From a virus: a stretch of DNA of 57,022 nt. How positions within the stretch are numbered: position 1 is the stretch's first letter; each line of letters begins with the position of its first letter. Below are positions 6,334 to 47,742 of this stretch, piece after piece. The position numbers were made by a program, and so were the translations under genes. The notes under the pieces are model-generated. The model saw only the letters and a program-made list of their open reading frames with translations, searched no databases and had not been told where the DNA came from. The stretch lies in UHGV virus genome UHGV-1526745; one strand, 5' to 3'.

Positions 6334-9300
6334 TTATGCTGTAGTTGATGCGCTGAATGATCCTGTTCCTCTTGATACTAGCATTGTTGGAGAATACAAA
6401 GCTGTACAATATGAGTAGCCTTCTGATGCTGATGTTTGTGGGCAATATATTTGCCCGGTAATACTTGATGCCGTTAAACCAGAAAAAGCGCATTGCACTG
6501 TTAATGTGCATCCACCATAAGGAACGTAATATTGAATTGTTTTACTTTTACCTCCGCAACTAAACGTTACGTTATAAGTTGATCTATATTCACCAGATGC
6601 TAATGAAATCGTCGCCATAAGCATAACTGATTTCCTCAATGGACTATCCGTGCTGTCGTTATATGTGATGGTTGCGTTATAACTTCCGTTATACCCAAGC
6701 ACTCGATCTGGACCAACCCCCATGTTAGCAACATCACCAACAAACGTTTTAGCTTCCACCGTTCCTGTGAATTTACCGCTACTTGCATACACCTTGCCCC
6801 TTACAGTTACGTTGTTGAACTCCGCGTTGCCATTTTTATCAATCATCCACCCGGCAGATCCTGATGCGTAGTTTGTTGACTGTATTCGCTGTGCAATCTT
6901 AGCGGTAGTGATAGCTGCATCTGCAATTTTAGCCGTCCCTATTGATGCGTCTTTAATAAACGCTTCGCGCACATACATTGCGCCATTGGTGACATAGAAA
7001 GGCGATTGATATGTGCCGTTTGCCGCAGTCATTAACACGAAGCGATCAACCAGGAAAATACACTGCGATTGAAAGTTAGTCCCGTCACCAGTAAGGCCAA
7101 GCGACATACCTGTTGCGTATGTTCTGCCGTTGCTATCTGTTGCCAGCTTGATTGAATACGACGCATCTACATTACCTTTAAAGTCGGTAAGCGCTTTCGA
7201 TGTTGTCTCTATAGCGGTTTTGTTCCCGTTAACGGTCACTGTCAACTGATCAATTTTGCTTGATAATGCTTCGTCAGCCGTTGCCATAGCCTGCGACCAT
7301 TCCGTGATGCTTGAATTTACATCTTCGAAAGACGCCGAGATCTGGACAAATTTTTCAGCGCTTGATGCCTCGTGATTTGCGAGTGCCGTTGAGACATCCA
7401 TTATTTTTGCTGAAATGTTTTCATTAATATTTGCCTCAAGCGATGCTATAGCCTCCGCGCGGGCCTGGGTTTCGTCTGCTATTGCTGTATCGATCCTTGC
7501 TATTTCCGCTTTTGTTTTTATCTGGCCTTTCCTGTATTTCGCCTCAATAACAGTGCCCATCTTGCTTTGCGCTATTGAGTTGTTGATAAGTGCAATCGAG
7601 GCGTTTTGCAGACTTGCTTTCGCCTGTTCTATCTTGTCGCTGTTTTTATCAACATCACTTTCAACAGAACCAAGCTCCGCGCTGATGCCTGATATTGCCT
7701 GTGCGCGGGCGCTTGATTCATCGGCAATCGCCTGATCCAAGCGTTTAACGCTGGCGTTCGTGCTATTTTCAAGCGTTGTTAAATCAGCCTTAACATCCGT
7801 TATTGCGTCGCTTCTTGCCTGCGTTTCATCTGATATTGCTTTATCAAGGCGGGAAACGCTGGCGTCAGTTTTCTTATCAAGATTGCTTATTGCTGCGTTT
7901 ACACCGTTAATAGCTTCAGCGCGGGCGCTGGCCTCGTCAGCAACTGCGCGTTGCACGTTAGAGATTTGGCCTTTAAGGTTGGAATCCATCGTATTCATTT
8001 CTGCCGTGATGGTTTCCAGTGATTCCGCAGTCGCTTTTTTCTCTTCAGCGATAACGTTGTCAATACGGTCAATTTCCGCCTTCGTCTCTGTTCTACCTTT
8101 TTTGTACTGAGCGGTAAGAGTTACACGGGTGTTAGTCTGTGCAAGTGAGTTATTAATAAGAGCAATAGAAGCGTTTTGCAGGCTTGCTCTTGCTTGCGCC
8201 AGTTCGCTGTCAACTTTTTCGCTAGATACCTCCAGCGAGTCTATTCTAGACTCATGCTGTCCAATATCATCGGCGTTTTCCTTAACCTTTTTATAAAGAT
8301 CTTCCGTTTCTTTTTTAAGTGTATCCGTGTCAGCTTTTATTGACCCTGTTTCTGTGATTAGGTTGTCAGTAGCAGTTTTAAGGTCATTCGTAGCGCTTTC
8401 GATAAGATCGGTGCGGTCGCCAAGATCCTTAATATCACTTACCATTCCCTTAAATTGCTCTGAATTCATCACGTCTTTGGTGACGTAATCGGTGATTTCA
8501 TCAAAGTTTTCTGTTGGCTTGCCTGATGCTTCAACGAAGTCTGACACACCAAAGGCATTACGCGTGCGCACATAAACGTAATAGGTGTGCCCCGTGTTCA
8601 TGCCGCCAAAAGTCCACTGATGACCACGCCCGGTATATTGTGCTTTAGTGGTTACTGATGCCGGATCGGTGATTTGTGTTTCACCTGAGTAATAAAACTC
8701 ATAACTAGTGTCAGTGGTAAGCGTTGTTCTGCTGATCGGGTAAACTGTAGCCTGAAATACACCGGGAACCCAGTTAACTCCTACCGGGGCCGCTGGTGCG
8801 CCAATAACCAGATCCACAATGCTTTCCGCACCCTTCATGCCCGTGTCATTTCTGCCACGAATGCCTAGTGAGTAGTTGCCAGCATCAATACCATAAAAAT
8901 CATAACTGTAATTCGTAGTTTCGTAGCTTTTAACTACGGCCCCCTCTGAATTATATACGCGGATTTCAAATGTCAGGCGATGAGTTGTCGTCAGTGTTTC
9001 CCATGTTGCGCGGCATTGAACTGTTTCAGATCCAATATTTAACACCTTCAGGTTTTCAATGTTCGGTACGCGGAAGTGATTAAGCGTGTCGTTGTTGACC
9101 TCAAAGATTGCGCCATTATCTACTACAGCCTGTTTGTGCGGGTCATGCTGTGATGCCTCTACAGTGTACACGCTATTATTTTCTGTTTCTGCTACGCTGG
9201 TGATTCGACACAATACGGGTTTTGCTGCGTTAGTTGACACAGCAAATACAGTACCGTTACGAATCCATGCCGGGGCGGATGCAAGGGTAATTTTATTTCC

Positions 9301-10914
9301 GCTAACTCCGGTGATCTGGTGTTTTTTAAATTTGCCATCACTATCAAGCAGGCTGATGGTGTCACCAGGGGCGATATATTCAGAATCAACTTTATCGACC
9401 GTGATAACCCTGCCATTGTTTGCCACGATGCGACCGCCTAAACGAGCGCCTGCGCGGTTATTGTCGAGTATCTCGATAATATCACCAGGGGTGAAGTGAA
9501 TTGCGTCACGGGCCATTTTAAACGTGAATTTTGACGGCTCGCGTTTTGCTGTTTCTATCAGCCATTTGCCAGCGCGGTACGCTTGCCCGCGTGACGTGCA
9601 ACCGAAAGCCTCTAGCGTGGTTTCGTTATAACCATCGCGGGCGATCAGTTCATCATCTGCCACATATTCTTTTGATTGCTCCCAGCCGTTTTCTGGGTCA
9701 GTCCATGATACGATCACGGCGTTGTAACATTCTGCAAGCGGAAGGCTTGAGCGAGTAAACGCGCCATCAACGACGTTTGCATTTGTGATGGTGGCAATTG
9801 GATCTTGTGGCGCATCAATCATCACGGTAAGGCGTTGCCCGTCCCATAACGCGATGCCACGGAACATACCTGCGATGTTATCCAGTAGGTCGCGGGCGCT
9901 CATTTGCTCCGTAATGTAAGCGTTGAGAGTCATGCGAGGTTCAAGGCCACCATAGCCATCATCAACCAACTGATCGCAGTATTGAGAAAGCACATACAAA
10001 GCGCCATCATCAACATCAATGTAACCAGCATGTCTAGCAAGCCCAAAGCGCTCGTTTTTAACCAGATACCGGAAAATCCACGCAGGGTTATTGGTGTACG
10101 CTTTTTTGAATCCACCAAGCCATAAACCCGAATATGTGCGCGTTTCTGTGTTGTAGTTATCAGGAACATCAACAATCAGGCCGCGAAGGTGATAGGTACG
10201 GGTGGGCGTATCAGTATACTGATCATGGTCAATTACAGCGCCAGCCACGGCGGTATGAGGATAAGACAGGTTATCATCTATTATTTCGCTGTAACTACTC
10301 CACCGCGTATCATTCCGCAATAGATCGCTGTTGCTGTCTGCTGTTATGCGACGAACGCGAATATCAAACGGCTTTTCATCAGGCGCGTTGATAACGTGAG
10401 CTTCCAGGTATTCACCACTCTGTTTACCAGGCCCGATTGTAATGTATTTAACAGGCGACCACGTCGATGATAATGATGGCTTAACATCAACCATTAACAC
10501 AACGGATGTATTGTATTGATTGCCCTTATCATCTGACTGAACGAGAGCATCAACACCAAGATTCAACCTGACGCGGGTAACGTTTGGATCTGAAACAGTC
10601 CTGATTATTGGCGTGTCGTGAGTTACCTTTGCGTTGACGATAACGGTTGATTCGATGGCATTAAAACCATTAATCGGCGATTGGTCAGCCGTGCCGTTGC
10701 GCCAGGCTATACTAATCCCCGGGATTGATGTATTCCCGTTTGCGTCAGTAACAGGTGTGTCATTAAGCATCACATCATTTAGTGGCGCCTTCTGGTTTAC
10801 CGGACCGTATATCGGCCCTTCGCTGAGAATATCTAAAACACGATAAAACTGTTTATGATACAGGTTATCGTTTAATAATACTGGTGTCTTGGCTTTGCCG
10901 CCGCCGCTACTCAT
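6334..10914 (-). CDS. host specificity protein J-like central tail fibre / tip protein
   Basis: 1526-aa ORF at lambda J position after I/K/L homologues; long coiled-coil repeat segment in middle. Confidence 0.85.
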   Translation of the reverse strand: MSSGGGKAKTPVLLNDNLYHKQFYRVLDILSEGPIYGPVNQKAPLNDVMLNDTPVTDANGNTSIPGISIAWRNGTADQSPINGFNAIESTVIVNAKVTHDTPIIRTVSDPNVTRVRLNLGVDALVQSDDKGNQYNTSVVLMVDVKPSLSSTWSPVKYITIGPGKQSGEYLEAHVINAPDEKPFDIRVRRITADSNSDLLRNDTRWSSYSEIIDDNLSYPHTAVAGAVIDHDQYTDTPTRTYHLRGLIVDVPDNYNTETRTYSGLWLGGFKKAYTNNPAWIFRYLVKNERFGLARHAGYIDVDDGALYVLSQYCDQLVDDGYGGLEPRMTLNAYITEQMSARDLLDNIAGMFRGIALWDGQRLTVMIDAPQDPIATITNANVVDGAFTRSSLPLAECYNAVIVSWTDPENGWEQSKEYVADDELIARDGYNETTLEAFGCTSRGQAYRAGKWLIETAKREPSKFTFKMARDAIHFTPGDIIEILDNNRAGARLGGRIVANNGRVITVDKVDSEYIAPGDTISLLDSDGKFKKHQITGVSGNKITLASAPAWIRNGTVFAVSTNAAKPVLCRITSVAETENNSVYTVEASQHDPHKQAVVDNGAIFEVNNDTLNHFRVPNIENLKVLNIGSETVQCRATWETLTTTHRLTFEIRVYNSEGAVVKSYETTNYSYDFYGIDAGNYSLGIRGRNDTGMKGAESIVDLVIGAPAAPVGVNWVPGVFQATVYPISRTTLTTDTSYEFYYSGETQITDPASVTTKAQYTGRGHQWTFGGMNTGHTYYVYVRTRNAFGVSDFVEASGKPTENFDEITDYVTKDVMNSEQFKGMVSDIKDLGDRTDLIESATNDLKTATDNLITETGSIKADTDTLKKETEDLYKKVKENADDIGQHESRIDSLEVSSEKVDSELAQARASLQNASIALINNSLAQTNTRVTLTAQYKKGRTETKAEIDRIDNVIAEEKKATAESLETITAEMNTMDSNLKGQISNVQRAVADEASARAEAINGVNAAISNLDKKTDASVSRLDKAISDETQARSDAITDVKADLTTLENSTNASVKRLDQAIADESSARAQAISGISAELGSVESDVDKNSDKIEQAKASLQNASIALINNSIAQSKMGTVIEAKYRKGQIKTKAEIARIDTAIADETQARAEAIASLEANINENISAKIMDVSTALANHEASSAEKFVQISASFEDVNSSITEWSQAMATADEALSSKIDQLTVTVNGNKTAIETTSKALTDFKGNVDASYSIKLATDSNGRTYATGMSLGLTGDGTNFQSQCIFLVDRFVLMTAANGTYQSPFYVTNGAMYVREAFIKDASIGTAKIADAAITTAKIAQRIQSTNYASGSAGWMIDKNGNAEFNNVTVRGKVYASSGKFTGTVEAKTFVGDVANMGVGPDRVLGYNGSYNATITYNDSTDSPLRKSVMLMATISLASGEYRSTYNVTFSCGGKSKTIQYYVPYGGCTLTVQCAFSGLTASSITGQIYCPQTSASEGYSYCTALYSPTMLVSRGTGSFSASTTA

Positions 10915-10927
10915 GGTTTTTCTCCTG

Positions 10928-11458
10928 TTAACTTACAACGTCTAGAGCGTCTCTGTTATTACTTGTGTCTATGCCTAACGACCCGACGTTTGAACCTATT
11001 TTCATTTCGCCCAACAGGATCGGCACTGGTCTACCCTGGCCTACCTTGTTTTCAATGCTGGTGTAGGTGTTATTAGATATGGTGTTATCTTGTGCGCTTT
11101 CTGCTGATGTTTTTATCTTCATGTTGCGAGACATAAAGATCGAGAACGCAACGCTAACAACCGAAACACCGATCAAAATCCAGCCTACAACGCCAATTCC
11201 TGCAATACCGCCTTCCACCACTGGCGCAACAATGACAGTAGTCCCGTCCGGGTATTTACTGTTAACCGCTGCTGGCGCGGTCTTTTCGTCATAATCTTTC
11301 CCGGCAATTCGTAAGCGCAACGGAGTGCTTAAAAACGCCTTTTTGAACTCATGATTCTGCGCAACCAGCAAGCCAAGTCCTTGCGCTGGCGTATCAACGT
11401 TTAAACACACCTTGCCGTAATATCTTCGAAGATTGCCCGTAAATCTAAATTTGAGCAT
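10928..11458 (-). CDS. tail assembly protein I (lambda gpI-like)
   Basis: RIAGKD..., hydrophobic Gly-rich core and ILLGEMKIGS resembling lambda gpI (VLPVLYGEMRVGS); position after K. Confidence 0.75.
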   Translation of the reverse strand: MLKFRFTGNLRRYYGKVCLNVDTPAQGLGLLVAQNHEFKKAFLSTPLRLRIAGKDYDEKTAPAAVNSKYPDGTTVIVAPVVEGGIAGIGVVGWILIGVSVVSVAFSIFMSRNMKIKTSAESAQDNTISNNTYTSIENKVGQGRPVPILLGEMKIGSNVGSLGIDTSNNRDALDVVS

Positions 11459-12138
11459 TTGTCAGATCTCCATATTGAGTTGGTCTGTCGAACATACGCG
11501 GGCCGCATTTGTTCGCGGCGGCTTAACAGTCCGGCATTGTCATGATGCAAAACAGTGTTATCGCCCAGGTAAATCATCGCGTGACATGGGTCAGCGCCTT
11601 TAAACGGCTGGCGGATAATCACATCACCAGGCTGAATACTTTTCGCGTCAACCATGAAAAACCCGTTCAATGGCAGGTTTTTTATGTACAGGTTTTCCCC
11701 ACGCAGCCACCATCCGTCGTGGCGTTCAAAATCCGGTAGATCCACGCCGCAAAGGTGATAGGCGTCACGAAAAAGCGAGTAGCAGTCTGTTTTCCCGTGC
11801 TCAAATTTACGGCCTAACAGGTGCGCCACCGGGCGGAATTTTCTAACCCTGCCACCGGAACACAAATACCACGGCAGGCCTGAAATAACCTGCTGTTGTC
11901 GATCCCGTGCTGACAATACCAACGAATTGTCAGTATGGGAGTGAAAAACGGCAGTTATAACGCCTAATTCGTCAGCTTTGATATAATCGTCAGGCGAGAT
12001 TTTAAAGCTGTTGTGCGGCGTTTCAGACACGTTGGCGCACGGGTAAAAATAATCGTTATCTATCACCAGCCCGCACACTTCCTCGCACTGGTGGGCTGCC
12101 GCATAGCGAATCATTTTATCTTCAAGTGCCATAATCAA
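11401..12138 (-). CDS. tail assembly protein K (lambda gpK-like, NlpC/P60 + JAB-type)
   Basis: 245-aa ORF between L and I homologues; Cys/His motifs consistent with gpK family. Confidence 0.75.
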   Translation of the reverse strand: MIMALEDKMIRYAAAHQCEEVCGLVIDNDYFYPCANVSETPHNSFKISPDDYIKADELGVITAVFHSHTDNSLVLSARDRQQQVISGLPWYLCSGGRVRKFRPVAHLLGRKFEHGKTDCYSLFRDAYHLCGVDLPDFERHDGWWLRGENLYIKNLPLNGFFMVDAKSIQPGDVIIRQPFKGADPCHAMIYLGDNTVLHHDNAGLLSRREQMRPAYVRQTNSIWRSDKCSNLDLRAIFEDITARCV

Positions 12139-12839
12139 CCCACCTTACTGGACCCAGGGAAGCACGAAATCGGTAACGGATTCGGGCGTGGAAAACGCAA
12201 ACGGCAACCGCTAAGGCGGTGGCTGCATTTGTCCAGCTTTGGATCACTGGTAGATTCGTCTTTATCGGTAGCTACAGGTCCACCACTATATCCGCAACCG
12301 TCGCCGCGATATTGCCATTGGCAAACGTCAGCGAGGATTGTGCGCCCTGGGATAACCGCCTTGTCAGCATCAATTGGCGTTGACAGTTCATATTGCACCT
12401 GGTCGGCTGTTTCTTCGCTCATCGCCTCAACGACGTAAAAAGACACCGCCTCGATAGATGGATCTGCATCCGGGTTGCCGTTTGGGAAGTTGATGGCGTC
12501 CAGGTATTTTACTTCCACCTGGCGGCGTGTAACCTTCATTCCTCGCAGGTCGTTGAAATCGTTGTTCATCCCGGTGATTAGCCCGCCAATGTTGGCTACT
12601 ACCATCTGCGGGCGTGAGTAAACGCCTTCGTTTTTCATTTCGAAGCCAGTGGCCTCGATTGGGTAGCTGTTGTAAGTCACTCCCTTCCAGATAACCGGGC
12701 CGTAATAGCCATTCGCTCCGGAATGGAAGCGGATAACCTCGCCACCCATGGGCGTGAGGTCTAATTCAAACAAGTCAATGACCGCGCCGACTCCGGCATC
12801 GACGGAATCAATAATCATCTCTCTCGGAATATTGCGCAT
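12135..12839 (-). CDS. minor tail protein L (lambda gpL-like)
   Basis: Track ORF 12135..12872; ATG at 12839 after AAGGTGAG; C-terminal CxxxxC...C motif and overall similarity to gpL. Confidence 0.8.
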   Translation of the reverse strand: MRNIPREMIIDSVDAGVGAVIDLFELDLTPMGGEVIRFHSGANGYYGPVIWKGVTYNSYPIEATGFEMKNEGVYSRPQMVVANIGGLITGMNNDFNDLRGMKVTRRQVEVKYLDAINFPNGNPDADPSIEAVSFYVVEAMSEETADQVQYELSTPIDADKAVIPGRTILADVCQWQYRGDGCGYSGGPVATDKDESTSDPKLDKCSHRLSGCRLRFPRPNPLPISCFPGSSKVG

Positions 12840-12857: not shown

Positions 12858-12873
12858 TGTGATCTGCGTCACG
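12858..12873. promoter_or_regulatory. CRP-like binding site TGTGAtctgcgTCACG
   Basis: Matches TGTGA-N6-TCACA consensus at 9 of 10 positions; centred ~63 bp upstream of predicted start of plus-strand promoter at 12893..12921. Confidence 0.4.
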
Positions 12874-12892
12874 CTAAATCATACCAAAACGG

Positions 12893-12921
12893 TTGATCGC
12901 GATTTTTACAATATGTATATT
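12893..12921 (+). promoter_or_regulatory. sigma70-like promoter for plus-strand moron cluster 1
   Basis: TTGATC-N17-TATATT upstream of ATG at 12938. Confidence 0.4.
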
Positions 12922-12937
12922 GTACTCAAAAGGAAGC

Positions 12938-13123
12938 ATGGTTAACAAAATGGCGCTGAGGTGTGAAATGGATGATAAGGTGTGGAGGTTGACGGTGTTC
13001 CTTGCTGATGGCAGGAAAATGACTGTGGCCCTGTATAAAGATGAAGGCGAGGCACTTACCGACGCGCTCTTACTCGCTGAAGATGAACGCGTTTTGGGGT
13101 ACAGGATCGAACCTGTCAAATGA
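12938..13123 (+). CDS. hypothetical moron protein (61 aa)
   Basis: ATG with AAAAGGAAG RBS inside track ORF 12893..13123; opposite strand to tail operon. Confidence 0.4.
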   Translation: MVNKMALRCEMDDKVWRLTVFLADGRKMTVALYKDEGEALTDALLLAEDERVLGYRIEPVK

Positions 13124-13135
13124 GAGGTTAACGAA

Positions 13136-13486
13136 ATGCAAAAATATAGTTTAGAAATATGGACTGATAAGTGTGAATGGGAGCGCATGGGCCTGTTTGA
13201 CACATACGCCGCAGCGCGTGATGAAGGTAGTGAGTTACTTCGCTGTTGGTCTGGCGCTCGTGATTTTGATATTACTCCGGTCCAAGTACCGGACCTGGTG
13301 GAAGAGATGAACCCGAAAGATATTAACTTTAACGTCAATGTTGAATTTGCAGACTCTATGGATCAGGCTTGCCCTGGTGAAATACACGCAAAAGGTTTTC
13401 CGGCTGACGATCCAGAAGCAAAACGAGAATACGAAAAAGCTGCGAAAGACTTCTGCATAGATAACCTGGCCGCATTCGATAAATAA
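13136..13486 (+). CDS. hypothetical moron protein (116 aa)
   Basis: Track ORF; tightly follows previous gene; no family recognised. Confidence 0.45.
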   Translation: MQKYSLEIWTDKCEWERMGLFDTYAAARDEGSELLRCWSGARDFDITPVQVPDLVEEMNPKDINFNVNVEFADSMDQACPGEIHAKGFPADDPEAKREYEKAAKDFCIDNLAAFDK

Positions 13487-13495
13487 GGCGGCAAC

Positions 13496-13744
13496 ATGGG
13501 GCGGCGCAATCACGGCGATTATGTGTACACGCTGAAACAGGCCGCCCGCCTCATCGGTTATCATGAGCACGAATTTATTGATTTGCTGATTGAGCGCGGG
13601 ATACTGTACCAGGTCTGTTTAACGCTGTACCCGAAAGCGAAATACCTACAGGAAAAGTTATTCATCATCATGACGGATGAAAACCAGGTTAATCATTCAT
13701 TCGTCACTGATAAGGGATTGACATATTTGAAGGGGGCGTTATGA
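13496..13744 (+). CDS. hypothetical moron protein (82 aa), possible HTH
   Basis: Track ORF; segment YTLKQAARLIGYHEHEFIDLLIERGIL looks helix-turn-helix-like. Confidence 0.45.
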   Translation: MGRRNHGDYVYTLKQAARLIGYHEHEFIDLLIERGILYQVCLTLYPKAKYLQEKLFIIMTDENQVNHSFVTDKGLTYLKGAL

Positions 13745-13819
13745 GATGTGCGAACATTACGTTCTGGAAATGATCATTATCATTATTGGATTGTTATGCA
13801 TTCTGCTATCGACACTATA

Positions 13820-13847
13820 AACCCCGCCGTGGCGGGGTATTTTTTAA
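13820..13847. terminator. rho-independent terminator ending moron cluster 1
   Basis: Hairpin CCCCGCC-GTG-GCGGGG followed by TATTTTTT. Confidence 0.5.
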
Positions 13848-14056
13848 TCGTAGGATAGAAATGCTACTTCTTTGCCATCCCAAGTCGTACAGCCGATATA
13901 TCCATCACCCATATCATGAAGATACCACGTCTCGCCGTTATCAGCTTGTACAGTTAGATCATTAATTTCATAGTCGGCAAACAATGTAAAAGCGCCAGTG
14001 CGCTCCACTACACAAAAATAAGGCATATCCCCTCCCCTAATTAATAACTTGCTCAA
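13844..14056 (-). CDS. hypothetical protein (70 aa)
   Basis: Track ORF between M homologue and terminator; no family recognised. Confidence 0.35.
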   Translation of the reverse strand: MSKLLIRGGDMPYFCVVERTGAFTLFADYEINDLTVQADNGETWYLHDMGDGYIGCTTWDGKEVAFLSYD

Positions 14057-14390
14057 ATGTTGCGTTTAGCGTGTATAGCGGTCCGTCTTTAGTCATGCTC
14101 CAGCTACGGCAAACAAAAAGCCTTTGCACGTTATCCATTGACGGCGACCAGTAAAAAGCCTCGACCGCGCCGCGCGCCCTCAAGAATGCTTCCGCCTGGA
14201 TTGCTACGTTTTCACCATCACCACATCCGGCGCTACTGCCCTTAAACACCAGGGTGTAGCTATCAAGTAACGGGTTGATACCTTTAACCTGTCTTTGCTC
14301 ATAACCATCGCCCAGCTTAACAACTGATACGTCCGGCTCCCTGGTCACGCTGTAGCTTCGTTGCGGCGTCCATCTGAACACTTCCGGCAT
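14037..14390 (-). CDS. minor tail protein M (lambda gpM-like)
   Basis: MPEVFRW... start after GGGGG RBS; FRW and GDGY motifs and C-terminal FEQVIN resemble lambda gpM (ends FEQVVN). Confidence 0.75.
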   Translation of the reverse strand: MPEVFRWTPQRSYSVTREPDVSVVKLGDGYEQRQVKGINPLLDSYTLVFKGSSAGCGDGENVAIQAEAFLRARGAVEAFYWSPSMDNVQRLFVCRSWSMTKDGPLYTLNATFEQVIN

Positions 14391-14423
14391 AAAACCCCCA
14401 TAAGTCACATTTTGTATATATCT

Positions 14424-14447
14424 TTACGCGCCTCTACGCGAAAAATG
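14424..14447. promoter_or_regulatory. conserved 24-bp element TTTACGCG-N4-CTACGCGAAAAAT (copy 1)
   Basis: Near-identical copy at 27213..27236; both immediately upstream of minus-strand genes (M, portal). Confidence 0.35.
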
Positions 14448-14558
14448 AGATCTTAATCACAATGATTATAGCTAGTTTACAAAATGGCTTCACATAGTGC
14501 GCAACAAGATGTATATAGAAAGCAAGAAGAAAAGCAGTACCAACGAAGGAGGCCAAAA

Positions 14559-14714
14559 ATGAAACGCTATGTAGTGGTAATGCTGAACAACGCATTCGAA
14601 CAAGTGGAAATAGCAATCGTTAAGGGCTTCGACGACGCATTCAAATACGGTCAATTCATGATGAATGCAAAAGAAGATGAATACCGTGATTTCTTCCTGA
14701 AGGCACTCAACTAA
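14559..14714 (+). CDS. hypothetical moron protein (51 aa)
   Basis: ATG after GGAGG RBS within track ORF 14484..14714. Confidence 0.35.
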   Translation: MKRYVVVMLNNAFEQVEIAIVKGFDDAFKYGQFMMNAKEDEYRDFFLKALN

Positions 14715-14731
14715 GGATGATGGGGTGAGTT

Positions 14732-14986
14732 ATGAAACTGGTAGCGATTGATAAAAACCTGAAAGTACAGAAAAACGCACAAGACAGGATTATCAAGAAA
14801 GGGAAGGAACTGCTTAAAGCATTTTTGAAGAAAGAGGCGCGCCCCAAAAAGTTACGTGATGGTTATGGCTTTAAATTCGACATCAACCCTGACTGGAGGC
14901 TGTTTAGCGAAGACCTAAAAGTCTGGTTAATTATCGATCATCTGGAATATAACAGGCACTGTGGAGTCAAAGGGGTGCATAAGTGA
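14732..14986 (+). CDS. hypothetical moron protein (84 aa, Lys-rich)
   Basis: Track ORF; no family recognised. Confidence 0.45.
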   Translation: MKLVAIDKNLKVQKNAQDRIIKKGKELLKAFLKKEARPKKLRDGYGFKFDINPDWRLFSEDLKVWLIIDHLEYNRHCGVKGVHK

Positions 14987-15095
14987 GGTGGGACATGGAG
15001 GACGATAAATTCACCTGGCGGGAGATCTGGAATATTTGGTTGGTGATGTTCGGCAGTGGTTACGTCGCACGTAACGGAAGATTATAGGAGGAAAA

Positions 15096-15281
15096 ATGAT
15101 TATTGACGAAACAGAGTTATGTTACGGAGTTAGGTTAGATCTTGATGAGGATGGTCGGCTATGGATAACCGAACTCATGGGGACTGACACCCTCGTAATT
15201 GACAAATCGCAGGCGACGCAACTTATCGCCGGGCTTCAAAAATTTATAGATGGCACATTTGAGAACGATCAGGAGGATTAA
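15096..15281 (+). CDS. hypothetical moron protein (61 aa, acidic)
   Basis: Track ORF with AGGAGG RBS. Confidence 0.4.
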   Translation: MIIDETELCYGVRLDLDEDGRLWITELMGTDTLVIDKSQATQLIAGLQKFIDGTFENDQED

Positions 15282-15283
15282 CA

Positions 15284-15571
15284 ATGGATTTAACCGTCAT
15301 TGGTCACGCACTGGCTGCGGCGGCTATGCAGGTTGTTATCGGCCTGCTTACTGGTGATTATCTCACTGGCGGCCTGATTGGATGTACATTCTTTTTTGCA
15401 CGCGAACACACGCAGGCTGAATATCGTTACATAGCGGAATTTTGCGGTGGAAAACGGGAAAGAATGCCGTGGTATGGCGGATTATTACCTAAAGCATGGA
15501 ATATGGCTAGCGTTTGCGACTTCGCCGCACCTGTATTCCTGTGCTGTTTGATTTATATTCTCACCATGTAA
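15284..15571 (+). CDS. hypothetical inner-membrane protein (95 aa)
   Basis: Track ORF; two or three hydrophobic segments. Confidence 0.5.
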   Translation: MDLTVIGHALAAAAMQVVIGLLTGDYLTGGLIGCTFFFAREHTQAEYRYIAEFCGGKRERMPWYGGLLPKAWNMASVCDFAAPVFLCCLIYILTM

Positions 15572-15575
15572 AATA

Positions 15576-15596
15576 AAGGCCGCTTATAGCGGCCTT
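15576..15596. terminator. bidirectional rho-independent terminator (after TMP and after moron cluster 2)
   Basis: Hairpin AAGGCCGC-TTATA-GCGGCCTT with T-tract on minus strand and A/T flank on plus. Confidence 0.5.
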
Positions 15597-15600
15597 AGTG

Positions 15601-17946
15601 TTATTTGCGGCGCGGTTGCAACATCCCGCCAGGTCTTTGCGATTCCCTTGTTATCATCTTCATTGCTACACGTTCCATTGTTGATTCAAGTCTGCGGCTG
15701 TCTTCTTCGCTAAATCCGTTTGTGGTTTGAATACTGATACTGACAGGCATACTAAAACCGCCACCGCCGCCAATATCACGACCAGGAATAACCCTGCCGT
15801 TCTCGCCTGGGATCATATATTGGTTGCCGTTAGACGTCTGGAATAGCTCCGGCCTGTTGTGTTCCCCTACGCGGTACATATTGCCACCAATGACGCTACC
15901 ACCATTAAAGCGACCGCCGCCGAAAATTGACGTAGCCAGCGACATGATCGCAGTGAGCGCAGCCGAACCAGCCGCCGCCCAGCTACCGCCAGTTGATGCA
16001 GCCGTTGCCGCCGCCGCCGGGGCCGCCGCCGCCGCGATGCTTCCCTGAGCGGCAACCGCGCTTGCCGTTGTACTTGCTTGAGTTGCCTTGCTTTGTGTTT
16101 CCATCATGATCTGATCTGCTATCCAGTCGGCTGCTATATCAGAAAGTCTGTTGCCAATATTCCCTAGTATATTGCTCCCTAAGTTAGCAAAAACATCGCT
16201 CAATGATTGAGTACCGTTAAGCAGGCCGACAAGCGCATTGCTCATGCCACCTTTAAGGCCATTAACGCAATCACCGATCAGGCCGTTTGTCTGGCTTTGC
16301 GCCTGCCATTGCTCCCATTTCAGATCGCGGATCTGTTGCTCATAGGCTAACAATGCCTGTTTCTGTTGCGCTTCGGTAGCGCCCAGGTCGATAAGCATTT
16401 GCTTACGGACGGCCCATTCATTTTGTACCTGCTGAATAGGGTCAACCTCGCCTTTAAGCTGATTCATCGGGCTTACTATTTGCGCCCATTTATCACGCAA
16501 TTCATCTACCGGAATTTGGGCTAATTCTTCCTTCAGTTCCTTACCTATCCCTTTTTGCGCGGCGCGGTACTCAAGGAGGGTGATTTTACCCTGGGCGAAT
16601 GCAGCATCAATGGCCTTGCCGTTCTCTAACGCTTTGCGCATGGCGGCGGCGTCTTTATTGTACTGGTCAGAAACGCTTATACCCTTGTCACCAAGCGTAT
16701 CCTCTTTGCTTTTCTTGCTGCCACTCTTCTTACCCTTTTTAGGCTTATCAACTGGCTTGTCGAATCCGGTGATCTTGCCGTCGTTGGCTTCTGCCTGTTT
16801 CTGCATAAACTCATCATAAGCGGCAGTCGCGTTTTTAATGTCGTTTGCAAAAGTCATGACTTTACCGACTGTAGGGCCGAATTTCTTCTCATTGTTGCTA
16901 TTTAGTTCTTCCTTGCGCTTATCTACAACCTCCTTCATCCATTTGTAGGCGTCCATAAGTGCCTTGATTGGCATCACCATTGCGATGATCTTCTCTGCCA
17001 CCTCGCCAGCCTTCACAGCCACATCATCAAACATGTCGATGAATTCGCCACCAGCCGTTTTGAGTGTATCGAAGCAGGTTTTAGCGAATTTAGCGCCCTC
17101 ACCTAACCCCTTAACGCCTTTTGTGATTAAGTCGATAGCTGAGACTACGCCATCTGATACGCCGAAAAGATCATCAAGCTGTTCAACAAGACCCATGATT
17201 TCGACTTTAAGCTCATTGATAGCCATGCCGGATGTGCGCGGCAACTGAGCAAACTGCTCGTTTGTTTCCTGCGTAGCCGCCTGGATTGCGTTAACCATCC
17301 TTTCTGCCGTGATCTTGCCGTCCAGCATTTCGGCGCGGAACTGGCCCATAGATAACCCCATCTGACGGGCCATTGTCTGTACGATGGTCGGGGTGTTTTC
17401 AAGTAGGCTGTTAAATTCTTCAGCACGCAGCACGCCGCCGTCTATAGACTGGCGGAACTGGCGCATAGAGTTAGACATCTGTTCCGCTGATGCGCCGCCT
17501 AACGCCCCCATTTTCTGAATAGTGCCAACCAGGTTAAGTAATTGCCCTTCCGTAGCTGACGTGTTCTTCAGTGAGATGGCAAGACCTTGCCATAGCTCGC
17601 CAGTATCCTTCAGGCTTTGCCCCGTTTCCCTGGATATTGCTTTCAGGCCGTCGAAAACCCGTCCGGCGGACTCCGCATCGCCCGTAAGCATTTTGATTTT
17701 TACGCGAAGCATTTTTGCTTGCTCCGCCATATCCATAAATTGGCGCACAGCCTCGGCAGCAATTAGCAAATGGATAACCCTGGTCAGTGCTTTGATGGAT
17801 GTTTTCAGGGTGTTTACCTGGCGGTCAGCCTGTTTTGCGCCGCGCTCTATACGGTCAAAGGCCTGGTCTGCCTGTCGTTGTGCAACGAGAAGTTGACCAG
17901 TTTTTGCATCAACTTCGTAATAAATTGTACCTACACTGGTAGCCAT
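15601..17946 (-). CDS. tail tape measure protein
   Basis: 781-aa ORF, Ala/Gln-rich helical protein at lambda H position. Confidence 0.85.
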   Translation of the reverse strand: MATSVGTIYYEVDAKTGQLLVAQRQADQAFDRIERGAKQADRQVNTLKTSIKALTRVIHLLIAAEAVRQFMDMAEQAKMLRVKIKMLTGDAESAGRVFDGLKAISRETGQSLKDTGELWQGLAISLKNTSATEGQLLNLVGTIQKMGALGGASAEQMSNSMRQFRQSIDGGVLRAEEFNSLLENTPTIVQTMARQMGLSMGQFRAEMLDGKITAERMVNAIQAATQETNEQFAQLPRTSGMAINELKVEIMGLVEQLDDLFGVSDGVVSAIDLITKGVKGLGEGAKFAKTCFDTLKTAGGEFIDMFDDVAVKAGEVAEKIIAMVMPIKALMDAYKWMKEVVDKRKEELNSNNEKKFGPTVGKVMTFANDIKNATAAYDEFMQKQAEANDGKITGFDKPVDKPKKGKKSGSKKSKEDTLGDKGISVSDQYNKDAAAMRKALENGKAIDAAFAQGKITLLEYRAAQKGIGKELKEELAQIPVDELRDKWAQIVSPMNQLKGEVDPIQQVQNEWAVRKQMLIDLGATEAQQKQALLAYEQQIRDLKWEQWQAQSQTNGLIGDCVNGLKGGMSNALVGLLNGTQSLSDVFANLGSNILGNIGNRLSDIAADWIADQIMMETQSKATQASTTASAVAAQGSIAAAAAPAAAATAASTGGSWAAAGSAALTAIMSLATSIFGGGRFNGGSVIGGNMYRVGEHNRPELFQTSNGNQYMIPGENGRVIPGRDIGGGGGFSMPVSISIQTTNGFSEEDSRRLESTMERVAMKMITRESQRPGGMLQPRRK

Positions 17947-17963
17947 GATTTAACCTCATGCAA

Positions 17964-17979
17964 AAATGTGATCTGTGTA
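17964..17979. promoter_or_regulatory. conserved motif AAATGTGATCTGTGTA (CRP-like left half-site)
   Basis: AAATGTGATCT matches the left half of the CRP consensus; right half does not. Confidence 0.35.
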
Positions 17980-17986
17980 TCTATTT

Positions 17987-18027
17987 TATACAAAATGGCT
18001 TTACTTCAACGACTCCATTTTGTATAA
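17987..18027. promoter_or_regulatory. perfect 12-bp inverted repeat TATACAAAATGG-N17-CCATTTTGTATA
   Basis: Read directly; sits between TMP start and plus-strand lipoprotein gene. Confidence 0.45.
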
Positions 18028-18073
18028 GGAAGCCAAAGGGAAAGGTCAGTAAATCAAGTTAGCGTGGTGGGTT

Positions 18074-18733
18074 ATGAAACGGTTAGCAAAAGTGGCAATG
18101 ATTGCGGCGGTATTGGGTCTGGTTGGTTGCAATGAGGATAATGAAAAAGCGCCTATAGTGACCAATCAAGAACAACAAGCATTAGCAGAGAAAAATGCTA
18201 AATGGCTTGCAGAACAACAAGCAAAACAAGCCGCATACGATGCACAGTTAGAAAAAGAAAATGCTGGTAAACAGTGGCTTGTAGTTGAAAGAAAAGATGA
18301 TATGCAGGACGCAAAAAACGTATTCCTTTTTGTGAAAGCAGAACAATTCAGCGGAAGTCTTGATGCTTTCCCGACACTGAAGGCACAGGATAAGAATAAA
18401 CCGGTATTAACAATCGCTTGCCAGGGTAATAAAACAAAAATGTTCGTAGCATGGTCACACCATGTAACTGACGCCGGGGACACTACTTATATTAACTACC
18501 GGATCGGCGTTCACAAAGCTGTAGCTACTGAGTGGGGGCGGTCAACTAATTATAAAGCTCTTGGATTATGGGATGGCAAAAAAGCCATCCCAATGATTAA
18601 AAAAATGGTTAACGAAAAACAATTCATCATTGAAGTAGTGCCGGAAGCTGGCGACATTGAGAAAGCAGTGTTTAACATTGATGGTCTTTATAACCACATC
18701 GACAAAGTGAAAAACGCTTGCAACTGGAATTAA
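18074..18733 (+). CDS. lipoprotein (219 aa) moron
   Basis: Signal peptide with LVGC lipobox; GGTGGG RBS. Confidence 0.6.
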   Translation: MKRLAKVAMIAAVLGLVGCNEDNEKAPIVTNQEQQALAEKNAKWLAEQQAKQAAYDAQLEKENAGKQWLVVERKDDMQDAKNVFLFVKAEQFSGSLDAFPTLKAQDKNKPVLTIACQGNKTKMFVAWSHHVTDAGDTTYINYRIGVHKAVATEWGRSTNYKALGLWDGKKAIPMIKKMVNEKQFIIEVVPEAGDIEKAVFNIDGLYNHIDKVKNACNWN

Positions 18734-18743
18734 GGGGTAAATC

Positions 18744-19118
18744 ATGAAAAACATAATCAAAGCGGCTCTCATTGGTGTTATGGCTTTAGCTCTTACAGGG
18801 TGCGCAAGATCAACTGATTTCGTTAAGTTAGCTGATAAAAAATTGCAAGTTGGAATGACTTGTGAGCAAGTGAATAAAATAATGGGGGAACCACAAAGAA
18901 TCGAGCATGACGGTAATTATAGTTATCACGTATGGTATTCAGTAACCAGCACGATAGGATTTACTTACATGGATGTTGAAGAATTATCCCCTTCAAGGGT
19001 TATCGCAAAGTTTGATAACTGCATCCTAAAAGAATGGAAAGATCGCAGTAAGGCAAAGTCTGTATACAATACAATCACACACAGTTCACCAGGTACAGCA
19101 ATTAAAGATTTCAATTAG
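18744..19118 (+). CDS. lipoprotein (124 aa), BamE/SmpA-OmlA-like
   Basis: Signal peptide with LTGC lipobox; QVGMTCEQVNKIMGEP resembles SmpA/OmlA motif. Confidence 0.55.
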   Translation: MKNIIKAALIGVMALALTGCARSTDFVKLADKKLQVGMTCEQVNKIMGEPQRIEHDGNYSYHVWYSVTSTIGFTYMDVEELSPSRVIAKFDNCILKEWKDRSKAKSVYNTITHSSPGTAIKDFN

Positions 19119-38873: not shown

Positions 38874-39033
38874 AATGCTCTCTCCTTTTTCAGGTGATTT
38901 TTACGCATTTCAGCGTTACCGGATTTTTAAAGAGCATTTTGTTTGTTTGAAGTATACAAAACGGATACATGCGAACAAACAATAAAGCGCCATTATGTGA
39001 TCCGCATCACACAATGACGCCATTTTGTAAACA

Positions 39034-47439: not shown

Positions 47440-47742
47440 CGCTACCCTATAACCTCAAAAAGTTTGATGCAAGTCACAAAACGTGTATTTTAAGCCTTGA
47501 TCTTAAAATTCCATTTTGTAAACTTGCAGACAAGGTAAGGCCATACTTGCAAAGACGCAAGGAAAAAGATAACGGAAGGCACAAAAAGGCACTTACCTTA
47601 TGCTCTTTAAAAATCCGGTGTCGCTGCGAAGCGAAAAACAAATATCACGCAACGGCGGGATCTGTTGAGCGGTCAGTCACTGCTATCTAATGCTAATGGG
47701 ATGCCCGCCCGCGCGTTCACTCTAACCATAGGAGAAAATGCG
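47440..47742. promoter_or_regulatory. right operator/promoter region
   Basis: Divergent intergenic region; inverted repeats CTTGCAGACAAG and CTTGCAAAGACGCAAG (47523..47562) plus CCATTTTGTA motif. Confidence 0.4.

What the first reader, a model, noticed from the sequence alone, without database searches (positions are those of the whole stretch)
12858..13847. Moron cluster 1 inside the tail operon with a CRP-site-plus-promoter arrangement
Between the M and L homologues, three plus-strand genes (61, 116 and 82 aa) run against the tail operon and end at a strong hairpin/T-tract terminator. Upstream is a sigma70-like promoter (TTGATC-N17-TATATT) and, ~63 bp further up, TGTGAtctgcgTCACG matching the CRP consensus. 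A host-regulated cargo cassette in a prophage is a typical place for lysogenic-conversion, exclusion or defence genes; none of the three proteins is recognisable to me.
Basis: partly seen in the sequence, partly recalled or inferred. Interest (0 to 1): 0.6.

Follow-up and report, generated by a model that had tools for sequence, protein, structure and literature searches.

The report
CRP-wired gene cassette inside prophage tail operon
A small self-contained gene cassette, sitting backwards between two tail genes of an mEp021-type E. coli prophage, has its own promoter, terminator and a conserved binding box for the host sugar-starvation regulator CRP, but what its five tiny proteins do is still unknown.

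Summary
The window is an mEpimmI (mEp021-like) temperate coliphage. Between tail genes L and M lies a plus-strand unit: a CRP box (12858-12873), a sigma70 promoter (TTGATC-17-TATATT), packed ORFs and an intrinsic terminator.

Corrections:
- Gene 1 is 51 aa, not 61.
- Gene 3 is recognisable as a stand-alone KilAC/ANT domain with a MerR/Xis-like helix-turn-helix model.
- A 10-codon ORF and a 16-aa hydrophobic peptide follow gene 3 through ATGA overlaps.

Footprinting across about 40 distinct relatives supports the cis elements. Both CRP half-sites, the -35 and the -10 are invariant, while the CRP spacer and surrounding DNA vary. The most divergent lineage has a perfect box at lac-like spacing.

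Of 41 family members retrieved through the L protein with both L and M in view, 40 carry the cassette. M and L directly abut in half of a sister phage group. So it is moron-like in build but fixed cargo in this family.

Two further antisense cassettes in the tail operon share the same promoter design.

CRP dependence, expression in the lysogen and protein function are inferred, not shown. No defence-system match was found.

Verdict: a well-supported new member of a known kind, of moderate interest.

The parts
12858..12873 (+). CRP-like box TGTGA-TCTGCG-TCACG, centre 12865.5
   Evidence: It matches 9 of 10 core positions. Both half-sites are invariant in 37 distinct relatives while the spacer shows at least 12 variants. 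The divergent lineage L049-L052 has the perfect box TGTGATCTGCATCACA.
12885..12892 (+). CAAAACGG element abutting the -35 (CAAAATGG-N in most relatives and in the promoters of cassettes 2 and 3); possible alpha-CTD/UP-like site
   Evidence: It is conserved. The same motif abuts the -35 at 14479-14488 and 17990-17999. Its function is inferred.
12893..12921 (+). Sigma70-type promoter: -35 TTGATC (12893-12898), 17-nt spacer, -10 TATATT (12916-12921); predicted start near 12928
   Evidence: Found by the promoter scan. TTGAT and TATATT are invariant while the spacer sequence varies.
12928..12967 (+). Predicted 5' leader with the conserved GTTAACAAAATGGCG motif and the AGGTG ribosome-binding site
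   Evidence: Conservation profile. The motif recurs elsewhere in the window. Its role is unexplained.
12968..13123 (+). g1, 51 aa, small beta-beta-alpha-beta protein (PHROG 29559, unknown function)
   Evidence: PHROG match at E 6e-25. dN/dS is 0.26. Identity among relatives is 41-100%. It resembles the g2 N-terminal domain (hhalign E 5.5e-4) and is fused to g2 in some relatives.
13136..13486 (+). g2, 116 aa, ORFan: variable N-terminal beta-beta-alpha-beta domain plus a conserved Cys/His-containing C-terminal half
   Evidence: PHROG 38567. Homologues occur only in E. coli prophages of this family. In the AlphaFold model residues 1-50 have pLDDT about 95 and the C-terminal half is below 50-60. 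dN/dS is 0.23.
13496..13744 (+). g3, 82 aa, stand-alone KilAC/ANT domain
13741..13773 (+). 10-codon relay ORF (MRCANITFWK), linked by ATGA overlap to the g3 stop and to the next start
   Evidence: A short coupling ORF is kept in most window-type relatives.
13770..13820 (+). 16-aa hydrophobic peptide MIIIIIGLLCILLSTL
   Evidence: All window-type alleles keep exactly 16 codons, and their changes are mostly synonymous or hydrophobic-conservative. This includes a strongly diverged allele, VIIIAVAVMLVLSPIL. Other relatives carry 23-45-aa single-transmembrane peptides in this slot.
13821..13847 (+). Intrinsic terminator: stem ACCCCGC/GCGGGGT, loop CGTG, then ATTTTTT
   Evidence: A GC-rich hairpin occupies this position in all relatives that keep the cassette. 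In mEp021 it is annotated as bidirectional.

Best explanation
This is a self-contained, host-transcribed operon of moron architecture that has become fixed between tail genes M and L in the mEpimmI (mEp021-like) family of temperate coliphages.

Proposed mechanism: host sigma70 RNA polymerase starts at about 12928 from TTGATC-17-TATATT. A cAMP-CRP dimer bound at 12858-12873 sits about 62 bp upstream, which is class-I, lac-like geometry. It is inferred to recruit the polymerase through the alpha C-terminal domain, possibly aided by the CAAAA(C/T)GG element next to the -35.

The roughly 0.9-kb mRNA runs antisense to the late tail operon and stops at the hairpin at 13821-13847. It encodes five tightly packed ORFs:
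- g1 and g2, which share a small beta-beta-alpha-beta domain and are fused in some relatives;
- g3, a stand-alone KilAC domain with a MerR/Xis-like helix-turn-helix;
- a 10-codon relay ORF;
- a 16-aa membrane peptide.

Because the unit needs only host factors and faces away from Q-dependent late transcription, I infer that it is expressed from the repressed prophage, most strongly when glucose is scarce. I further infer that its products act in trans on the host or on incoming phage. My best guess for function is a small regulatory and exclusion module made of a KilAC regulator or SOS damper, a g1/g2 partner pair and a membrane peptide.

Shown here: the anatomy, the coding status of the ORFs, conservation of the cis elements, and the distribution among relatives. 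Inferred: CRP binding and activation, timing of expression, and every protein function.
For: Anatomy.

Coding status: dN/dS is 0.26 for g1, 0.23 for g2 and 0.12 for g3.

Footprint: both CRP half-sites, the -35 and the -10 are invariant in 37 distinct sequences, while the CRP spacer and promoter spacer vary. In the most divergent lineage the surrounding intergenic DNA has diverged. Yet the box becomes the perfect TGTGATCTGCATCACA, and the distance from its centre to the -10 is 49.5 bp. That equals the distance in lacP1, whose sequence was verified against E. coli genomes.

Rarity: only five CRP-core matches with at most one mismatch occur in 57 kb. Two of them sit about 62.5 and 70.5 bp upstream of the predicted starts of two antisense cassettes. 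A third cassette has an invariant TGTGAT half-site at about -60.5 and the same promoter design.

Moron architecture: M and L abut in 18 of 37 sister-group phages, and the junction holds other cargo in the rest.

g3 is a KilAC domain. The KilAC domain of Listeria AriS alone suppresses the SOS response (PMC9043618). HK97 gp15 is a precedent for a tail-operon moron expressed from the prophage that encodes a small inner-membrane exclusion protein (PMC3594210).
Against: - No transcript, start-site or CRP-binding data exist for any family member. The 2025 family paper does not mention CRP.
- The position of the box depends on a predicted start. It varies from -61.5 to -63.5 among alleles, which is 1-2 bp off the optimum in most of them.
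- The core promoter matches 9 of 12 consensus positions, so it may not need an activator.
- Fixation in 40 of 41 family members with both L and M in view, and the near-invariance of g3, are atypical for accessory morons. They could instead mean a role in the phage's own development.
- G+C content equals the window average.
- There are no matches to defence-system models, and the structure searches were uninformative about function.
Confidence: 0.5

Rival explanations
1. The cassette is a lytic-cycle (early or middle) accessory or regulatory module of the phage itself. For example, a KilAC/helix-turn-helix regulator with partners might tune development, induction or tail assembly. On this view it is not a lysogenic-conversion or defence cargo, and CRP merely modulates its level.
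For: It is core-like: 40 of 41 L-retrieved family members with both L and M in view carry it at the same place. g3 is 90-100% identical across relatives and has dN/dS 0.12. The family paper's manual analysis lists a KilAC-like protein among its core genes that did not coincide with the VirClust core set. In other phages KilAC domains sit in Rha/Ant-type regulators.
Against: The unit is antisense to the late operon and carries a host-type promoter and its own terminator, which is the classic signature of prophage-expressed morons (PMC3594210). One natural family member lacks the whole cassette (L091).
Confidence: 0.25
2. The promoter is real, but the TGTGA-N6-TCAC box is not a working CRP activator site. 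Either the promoter is constitutive, or the box binds another dimeric protein (phage-encoded, such as g3), or it acts on the minus strand next to the L ribosome-binding site.
For: The core promoter is already fairly good at 9 of 12 positions. Box-to-promoter spacing drifts by 2 bp among alleles. The only perfect CRP palindrome in the window (38996-39011) turns out to be the tip of a terminator hairpin. The box lies 19 nt upstream of the L start codon.
Against: The conservation pattern, with half-sites fixed and the 6-nt spacer free, is what a CRP dimer imposes. The box improves to 10 of 10 positions at exact lac spacing in the most diverged lineage. Similar boxes sit at about -70.5 and -60.5 of two sister promoters. 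The box is too short and has no T-tract, so it is not a terminator.
Confidence: 0.2
3. The main role is in cis. Convergent transcription from this and the two sister promoters collides with late tail-operon transcription, or competes through an overlapping minus-strand promoter. Host cAMP status would then gate expression of M, L, K, I and J.
For: Three antisense cassettes with one shared promoter design interrupt the tail operon just upstream (in late-transcript sense) of TMP, M and L. A conserved minus-strand promoter-like pair, TTGTTA-18-TACAAT (12948 to 12919), has a -10 that overlaps the plus-strand -10. L091 keeps the promoter although the genes are deleted.
Against: The ORFs are under clear purifying selection, so the products matter. 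Q-antiterminated polymerases usually override such obstacles. There is no direct evidence.
Confidence: 0.08
4. It is a toxin-type or abortive-infection module. The terminal 16-aa hydrophobic peptide (23-45-aa single-transmembrane peptides in relatives) would be a membrane toxin comparable to type I toxins. Upstream proteins or antisense late transcripts would hold it in check.
For: A small hydrophobic peptide gene sits at the 3' end in all relatives that keep the cassette. Its length is preserved and its changes are conservative. Translation is arranged through ATGA coupling, which suggests low dosed expression. The neighbouring cassette carries a ParE-like toxin.
Against: No dedicated antisense sRNA and no Rfam family were found. 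There are no PADLOC or PHROG matches. Toxicity is untested, and the resemblance to Ibs-type peptides is compositional only.
Confidence: 0.1

Closest known systems
HK97 gene 15 moron (also lambda lom and bor): prophage-expressed units inserted in late operons
   Same: It is an independent promoter-plus-terminator unit inserted inside the tail operon of a lambda-type tail module. It encodes small proteins, including a membrane peptide. The flanking genes are adjacent in related phages.
   Different: It carries five ORFs rather than one and has no sequence similarity to gp15/YebO. It is fixed in nearly the whole family instead of sporadic, and its G+C is not anomalous. A CRP box is a conserved part of it. 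Its expression and any exclusion activity are untested.
lacP1-type class I CRP-dependent promoters
   Same: The TGTGA-N6-TCAC(A/G) box is as good as the lac box (9 of 10 positions). The distance from its centre to the -10 is 49.5-51.5 bp, against 49.5 bp in lac. The core promoter is non-consensus.
   Different: The start site is only predicted. Most alleles put the box at -62.5 or -63.5 rather than -61.5. The -35 and -10 are better than in lac, so CRP dependence may be partial.
KilAC/ANT domain of phage Ant/Rha/Bro-type regulators, e.g. Listeria AriS
   Same: g3 passes the Pfam PF03374 threshold. It aligns at 33-41% identity with the C-terminal domains of such proteins.
   Different: g3 is the KilAC domain alone (82 aa), with no N-terminal AntA/Bro-N/Rha domain. 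It forms a tight E. coli-only cluster. SOS-inhibiting, antirepressor and DNA-binding activities are all untested.
Small hydrophobic type I toxins and membrane micro-proteins of E. coli (Ibs, Ldr and similar)
   Same: The terminal ORF is 16 aa, almost entirely Ile/Leu, and conserved in length.
   Different: It is co-transcribed at the end of an operon and translationally coupled, rather than being a stand-alone gene with an antisense sRNA. No homology was found.

Membership tests
Moron (Juhala/Hendrix sense) | Extra DNA between genes that are adjacent in related phages | tested here: met
   In the sister group (L about 71% identical) M and L abut in 18 of 37 loci, and other cargo fills the junction in the rest. 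One family member (L091) lacks the genes.
Moron (Juhala/Hendrix sense) | Own promoter and own terminator | tested here: met
   The conserved -35 and -10 and the GC-rich hairpin with T-tract are predicted from sequence and not mapped experimentally.
Moron (Juhala/Hendrix sense) | Base composition differs from surrounding genes | tested here: inconclusive
   The cassette has 44.9% G+C, against 52.9% for L and 50.8% for M, but the whole window has 45.6%.
Moron (Juhala/Hendrix sense) | Sporadic, horizontally shuffled distribution | tested here: not met
   It is present at the same site in 40 of 41 L-retrieved family loci with both L and M in view. Only the g1 and g2 alleles and the 3' peptide slot are shuffled.
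Moron (Juhala/Hendrix sense) | Expressed from the repressed prophage | not testable with these tools
   No transcriptome data are available.
Class I CRP-activated promoter | Consensus-like TGTGA-N6-TCACA site | tested here: met
   The box matches 9 of 10 positions here and 10 of 10 in L049-L052. Half-sites are invariant and the spacer is free.
Class I CRP-activated promoter | Site centred near -61.5 (or -71.5 and so on) on the same helix face | tested here: inconclusive
   From a predicted start at 12928 the centre falls at -62.5. Alleles range from -61.5 to -63.5. No start site has been mapped.
Class I CRP-activated promoter | Transcription depends on cAMP-CRP | not testable with these tools
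   This needs a reporter, a crp mutant or a footprint.
KilAC/ANT domain (PF03374) | Profile match above the curated cutoff | tested here: met
   g3 scores 28.7 bits against a cutoff of 25.3, E 1.8e-6.
Phage antirepressor (Ant/AriS-type two-domain regulators) | N-terminal AntA/Bro-N/Rha domain plus C-terminal KilAC domain | tested here: not met
   g3 is 82 aa and consists of the KilAC domain only.
Known anti-phage defence systems (PADLOC) | Match to any defence protein model | tested here: not met
   g1, g2 and g3 gave no hits at E <= 1.
Type I toxin-antitoxin | Small hydrophobic toxin plus a dedicated antisense RNA | tested here: inconclusive
   The hydrophobic peptide is present. No sRNA family was found, and antisense promoters were not studied.

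The most novel reading that the evidence does not exclude
The tail operon of mEpimmI phages carries a small cAMP-CRP regulon. Three antisense cassettes are driven by paralogous promoters of the form TGTGA box, CAAAATGG, -35, N17, TGTATA:
- this one, with a stand-alone KilAC regulator and a membrane micro-peptide;
- a cassette containing a ParE-like toxin;
- a variable-cargo slot.

Host carbon starvation would switch them on together. This would couple prophage behaviour to nutrient state, for example SOS or induction damping, exclusion, or gating of tail-tip gene expression by convergent transcription.
Probability: 0.15. Interest if true: 0.7.

Novelty: new member of a known kind. Interest (0 to 1): 0.42.

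Why it matters
mEpimmI phages are reported to be as common as lambdoid phages in human faecal E. coli (PMC11893012), yet these genes are annotated only as hypothetical proteins. A conserved, host-regulated operon inside the tail genes would be a concrete handle on how such prophages sense the gut nutrient state. It also offers three compact unknowns that can be tested with simple genetics: a stand-alone KilAC domain, an ORFan pair and a 16-aa membrane peptide. If CRP control of all three cassettes holds, it would be a tidy example of a prophage wiring its accessory genes into a global host regulon.

Tried and rejected
- **61-aa start for gene 1.** The ATG at 12938 is not conserved.
- **Ipe, the haemolysis-inducing protein of mEp021.** It is mEp021_29 in the early region, not in this cassette.
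- **g2 resembling RecA.** A single-sequence hit at E 0.03 against RecA fusion proteins disappeared with the family profile.
- **g2 resembling HepS/HEPN.** E 0.44, and the Rx4-6H motif does not align.
- **g2 C-terminus resembling OmpA-like repeats.** These are short repeated motif hits in two large proteins only.
- **Palindrome TACAATAT-GT-ATATTGTA over the -10 as an operator.** It is unique in the window, and its left arm is not conserved in the divergent lineage.
- **Perfect CRP palindrome at 38996-39011.** It is the tip of a 16-bp terminator hairpin, so it was not counted as CRP evidence.
- **CRP-like match at 47463.** It lies among ACTTGCA repeats in the cI-cro region and is probably an operator.
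- **Species-representative genomes.** The g2 scan found no relative.
- **Short contigs as possible transcript evidence.** They were not interpretable.
- **Rfam.** No significant family.
- **Shared ATGTATAT motif.** Not enriched.
Full report
**Identity of the region.** The 1.4 kb around the finding matches, at 84-94% identity, seven temperate coliphages of the mEpimmI group and prophages in 35 of 5,426 complete E. coli genomes. The phages are mEp021, mEp010, mEp013, mEp044, mEp515, mEp554 and MagusPhagus. This group was described in 2025 as a Nus-dependent, non-lambdoid family common in human faeces (PMC11893012).

The tail genes lie on the minus strand in lambda order:
- J: 6334-10914
- I: 10928-11458
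- K: 11401-12138
- L: 12135-12839 (Pfam Phage_tail_L, E 8.6e-72)
- M: 14037-14408 (Phage_min_tail, E 9e-28)
- tape measure: 15601-17946

**Checking the observation.**
- The promoter TTGATC-N17-TATATT is at 12893-12921.
- The box TGTGATCTGCGTCACG is at 12858-12873.
- The 116-aa and 82-aa ORFs are present.
- A hairpin of 7 bp with 6 G-C pairs at 13821-13838 is followed by ATTTTTT. Its predicted energy is -13.8 kcal/mol, z = -2.5 against shuffles.

Three corrections apply.
1. The first gene is 51 aa (12968-13123), preceded by AGGTG. The upstream ATG at 12938 that would give 61 aa is replaced by CAC, CAT-A or CAG in most relatives. GenBank and RefSeq relatives annotate 156-nt genes.
2. The unit does not end with gene 3.
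   - The g3 stop overlaps the ATG of a 10-codon ORF (13741-13773).
   - The stop of that ORF overlaps the ATG of a 16-codon ORF (13770-13820, MIIIIIGLLCILLSTL).
   - That ORF ends on the first base before the terminator stem.
3. A 60-aa minus-strand gene (13844-14026, PHROG 3249) lies between the cassette and M.

**Are the ORFs genes?** Across IMG/VR relatives, pairwise dN/dS is 0.26 for g1, 0.23 for g2 and 0.12 for g3.
- g3 is almost invariant (90-100% identity).
- g1 (41-100%) and g2 (61-94%) are more variable than the flanking L gene (85-99%).
- The 16-aa ORF keeps exactly 16 codons in every window-type allele.
  - Its differences are mainly synonymous or hydrophobic-conservative.
  - This includes a very different allele, VIIIAVAVMLVLSPIL.
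- Relatives of the mEp021 type instead carry 23-45-aa single-transmembrane peptides in the same slot.

I take all five ORFs as probably translated. The two micro-ORFs rest on comparative evidence only.

**Is the promoter and CRP arrangement more than chance?** A promoter-like match alone is not: 8 were found against 6.6 expected in 4 kb. The comparative evidence is strong.

In 37 distinct L-to-g1 intergenic sequences:
- Invariant positions:
  - 12859-12863 (GTGAT) and 12869-12872 (TCAC), the two CRP half-sites;
  - 12891-12897 (GGTTGAT), covering the -35;
  - 12916-12921 (TATATT), the -10.
- Variable positions:
  - 12865-12868, the four central bases of the CRP spacer, giving at least 12 spacer variants;
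  - 12898-12902 in the promoter spacer.

In the most divergent lineage (L049-L052, g3 only 73% identical), the DNA between the elements has largely changed. The box is nevertheless the perfect TGTGATCTGCATCACA, and TTGAT and TATATT persist.

The window contains only five matches to the 10-base CRP core with at most one mismatch.

**Geometry.**
- With the usual 7-nt distance from the -10, the start is about 12928 and the box centre (12865.5) is at -62.5.
- Alleles with one extra A before the -35 give -63.5.
- The divergent lineage gives -61.5.
- The distance from box centre to the -10 is 49.5-51.5 bp.
- In lacP1 that distance is 49.5 bp; I confirmed the lacP1 sequence at 100% identity upstream of lacZ.

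This is class-I-like geometry, with the caveat that the start site is predicted.

**Is it a moron?** I retrieved relatives through the L protein, which does not presuppose the cassette.
- Within the family (L at least 85% identical), 40 of 41 loci showing both L and M carry g2, g3 and the 60-aa gene between them, with a gap of 1.2-1.9 kb. All but one of those 40 also carry g1.
- One locus (L091) has a 131-bp gap. The coding part has been deleted, but the CRP box, the promoter and the first part of the leader remain.
- In the next group (L about 71% identical), M and L abut in 18 of 37 loci.
- In the other 19, the junction holds unrelated inserts of 0.2-1.3 kb. Examples are a DUF6602 protein and an aspartyl-protease-like protein.

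So the M-L junction is a recurrent insertion site and this unit has moron architecture. Within its own family, however, it is fixed rather than sporadic. Its G+C (44.9%) is below that of L and M (51-53%) but equals the window average of 45.6%.

**The proteins.**
- g3
  - It passes the Pfam threshold for the KilAC/ANT domain: 28.7 bits against a cutoff of 25.3.
  - Its nearest relatives outside the family are the C-terminal domains of Rha/antirepressor proteins of Vibrio, Cronobacter and Hafnia phages, at 33-41% identity.
  - Its AlphaFold model has pLDDT 82.
  - The only experimental precedent I found is Listeria AriS, whose KilAC domain alone suppresses the SOS response, probably through RecA (PMC9043618).
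  - mEpimmI lysogens are mostly not UV-inducible. The authors attribute this to the repressor lacking the Ala-Gly cleavage site.
- g2
  - It is an ORFan. There are 54 homologues, all from E. coli or unnamed assemblies.
  - Only 14 hits appeared among 1.84 billion cluster representatives, mostly fragments of the same family.
  - Its first 50 residues fold confidently as beta-beta-alpha-beta (pLDDT about 95).
  - Its best-conserved part, residues 72-116 with invariant C79 and near-invariant H84 and C107, is predicted with low confidence.
- g1
  - It resembles the g2 N-terminal domain (hhalign E 5.5e-4, probability 30%).
  - In the divergent lineage a g1-like domain is fused to g2 in one 172-192-aa protein. 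This suggests the two act together.
- Fold searches gave only generic matches and DUF7336-like small phage proteins.
- PADLOC and NCBIfam gave nothing.

**A wider pattern.** Two further plus-strand cassettes interrupt the tail operon, and their promoters follow the same design.

| Promoter | Box | Box match | Motif next to -35 | -35 | Spacer | -10 | Predicted box position |
|---|---|---|---|---|---|---|---|
| P1 (12858-12921) | TGTGATCTGCGTCACG | 9 of 10 | CAAAACGG | TTGATC | 17 | TATATT | -62.5 |
| P2 (14446-14517) | TGAGATCTTAATCACA | 9 of 10 | ACAAAATGGC | TTCACA | 17 | TATATA | -70.5 |
| P3 (17967-18028) | TGTGATCTGTGTATCT | 7 of 10 | ACAAAATGGC | TTTACT | 17 | TATAAG | -60.5 |

- In P2 the right half-site is well conserved and the left varies.
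- In P3 the TGTGAT half-site is invariant in seven phages and the right half is weak.
- Cassette 2 encodes a 51-aa protein followed by a ParE-like toxin domain (PF24732, E 7.9e-11).
- Cassette 3 here encodes a VasI-like protein, and its cargo differs between phages.

This shared design strengthens the case that the cassettes are jointly host-regulated. It rests on sequence alone.

**Mechanism and confidence.** I regard three points as well supported: the unit is an autonomous sigma70 operon, its cis elements are under selection, and it encodes real small proteins.
- CRP activation is the best reading of the box, at about 0.6.
- Expression from the repressed prophage is likely by analogy with morons (PMC3594210) and from the orientation, but it is unproven.
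- Function is open. My preferred guess is a small trans-acting regulatory and exclusion module.
- The main rival is that such a fixed, highly conserved module serves the phage's own development.
- A cis role through convergent transcription cannot be excluded. Neither can a role through the conserved overlapping minus-strand promoter-like pair TTGTTA-18-TACAAT (12948 to 12919).

**Novelty.** The genes are already in GenBank as hypothetical proteins or "putative antirepressor", and the concept of tail-operon morons is established. The following appear to be new:
- the conserved CRP box and promoter;
- the micro-ORFs;
- the relationship between g1 and g2;
- the common promoter design of the three cassettes.

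It is a new, well-documented member of a known kind. Interest is moderate.

Noticed in passing
window 14446-15596: A second plus-strand cassette lies between M and the tape-measure gene. It has a CRP-like box TGAGATCTTAATCACA (14446-14461) about 70.5 bp upstream of the predicted start of TTCACA-17-TATATA. Its ORFs are a 51-aa protein (14559-14714), an 84-aa ParE-like toxin domain protein (14732-14986, PF24732, E 7.9e-11), a 61-aa protein and a 95-aa membrane protein. It ends at a bidirectional hairpin at 15576-15596. It looks like a toxin-antitoxin-containing moron.
   Followed up: partly
window 17967-19118: A third plus-strand cassette lies upstream of the tape-measure start and has the same promoter design. 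TGTGAT is invariant in 7 phages, followed by ACAAAATGGC, TTTACT, a 17-nt spacer and TATAAG. Here it encodes a VasI-like protein (18074-18733, PF11319, E 1.4e-15) and a 124-aa protein. The cargo differs between mEp phages, so this one is a true variable slot.
   Followed up: partly
window 12945, 14479, 17990 (plus strand), 39019 (minus strand): The decamer ACAAAATGGC occurs exactly four times. With at most one mismatch it occurs 16 times against 7.4 expected (0 of 100 shuffles reach 16). It abuts the -35 in promoters 2 and 3, a near copy abuts the -35 of promoter 1, and an extra copy lies in the leader of cassette 1. Its role is unexplained; it could be an UP-like element or a regulator site.
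   Followed up: partly
window 38986-39021: The perfect CRP-consensus palindrome TGTGATCCGCATCACA forms the tip of a 16-bp hairpin terminator on the minus strand. It lies between a DNA methyltransferase-like gene and a NinF/NinG-like region. It is conserved with one mismatch in mEp021, where it is annotated as TERM_4. Whether it also binds CRP is unknown.
   Followed up: partly
window 38919-38935 (minus strand) and 47602-47618 (plus strand): The sequence GCTCTTTAAAAATCCGG is repeated and is followed by a short hairpin. It looks like the boxA/boxB nut sites expected for this N-like antitermination phage; the literature reports three nut sites in mEp021.
   Followed up: no
window 12919-12948, minus strand: A promoter-like pair TTGTTA-18-TACAAT points toward L. 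Both hexamers are conserved in relatives, and its -10 overlaps the plus-strand -10. It could be an internal promoter for L-K-I-J that competes with the cassette promoter.
   Followed up: partly
L091 (IMGVR_UViG_3300045988_076424), M-L junction: This is the only family member without the cassette. A deletion runs from the leader (just after GTTAACAAAAT) to the end of M. It removes g1, g2, g3 and the 60-aa gene but keeps the CRP box and promoter, which now point into M.
   Followed up: partly
L105-L141 (sister phage group, L about 71% identical): The M-L junction is either tight or holds unrelated inserts of 0.2-1.3 kb. Examples are a 268-aa DUF6602 protein and a 154-aa aspartyl-protease-like protein. 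The junction is therefore a recurrent cargo hot spot in lambda-type tail modules.
   Followed up: partly
L049-L051; protein P0047: In a divergent prophage lineage a g1-like domain is fused to g2 in one 172-192-aa protein. This suggests that g1 and g2 act together.
   Followed up: partly
window 13844-14026, minus strand: A 60-aa gene (PHROG 3249, unknown function) is co-oriented with the tail genes between the cassette and M. It is present in all relatives that keep the cassette at 55-98% identity. Lambda has no such gene between M and L.
   Followed up: no
window 47463-47478: A CRP-like match TTTGATGCAAGTCACA lies in the repressor-cro intergenic region and is identical in mEp021. It sits among ACTTGCA repeats, so it is more likely a repressor operator than a CRP site.
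   Followed up: no
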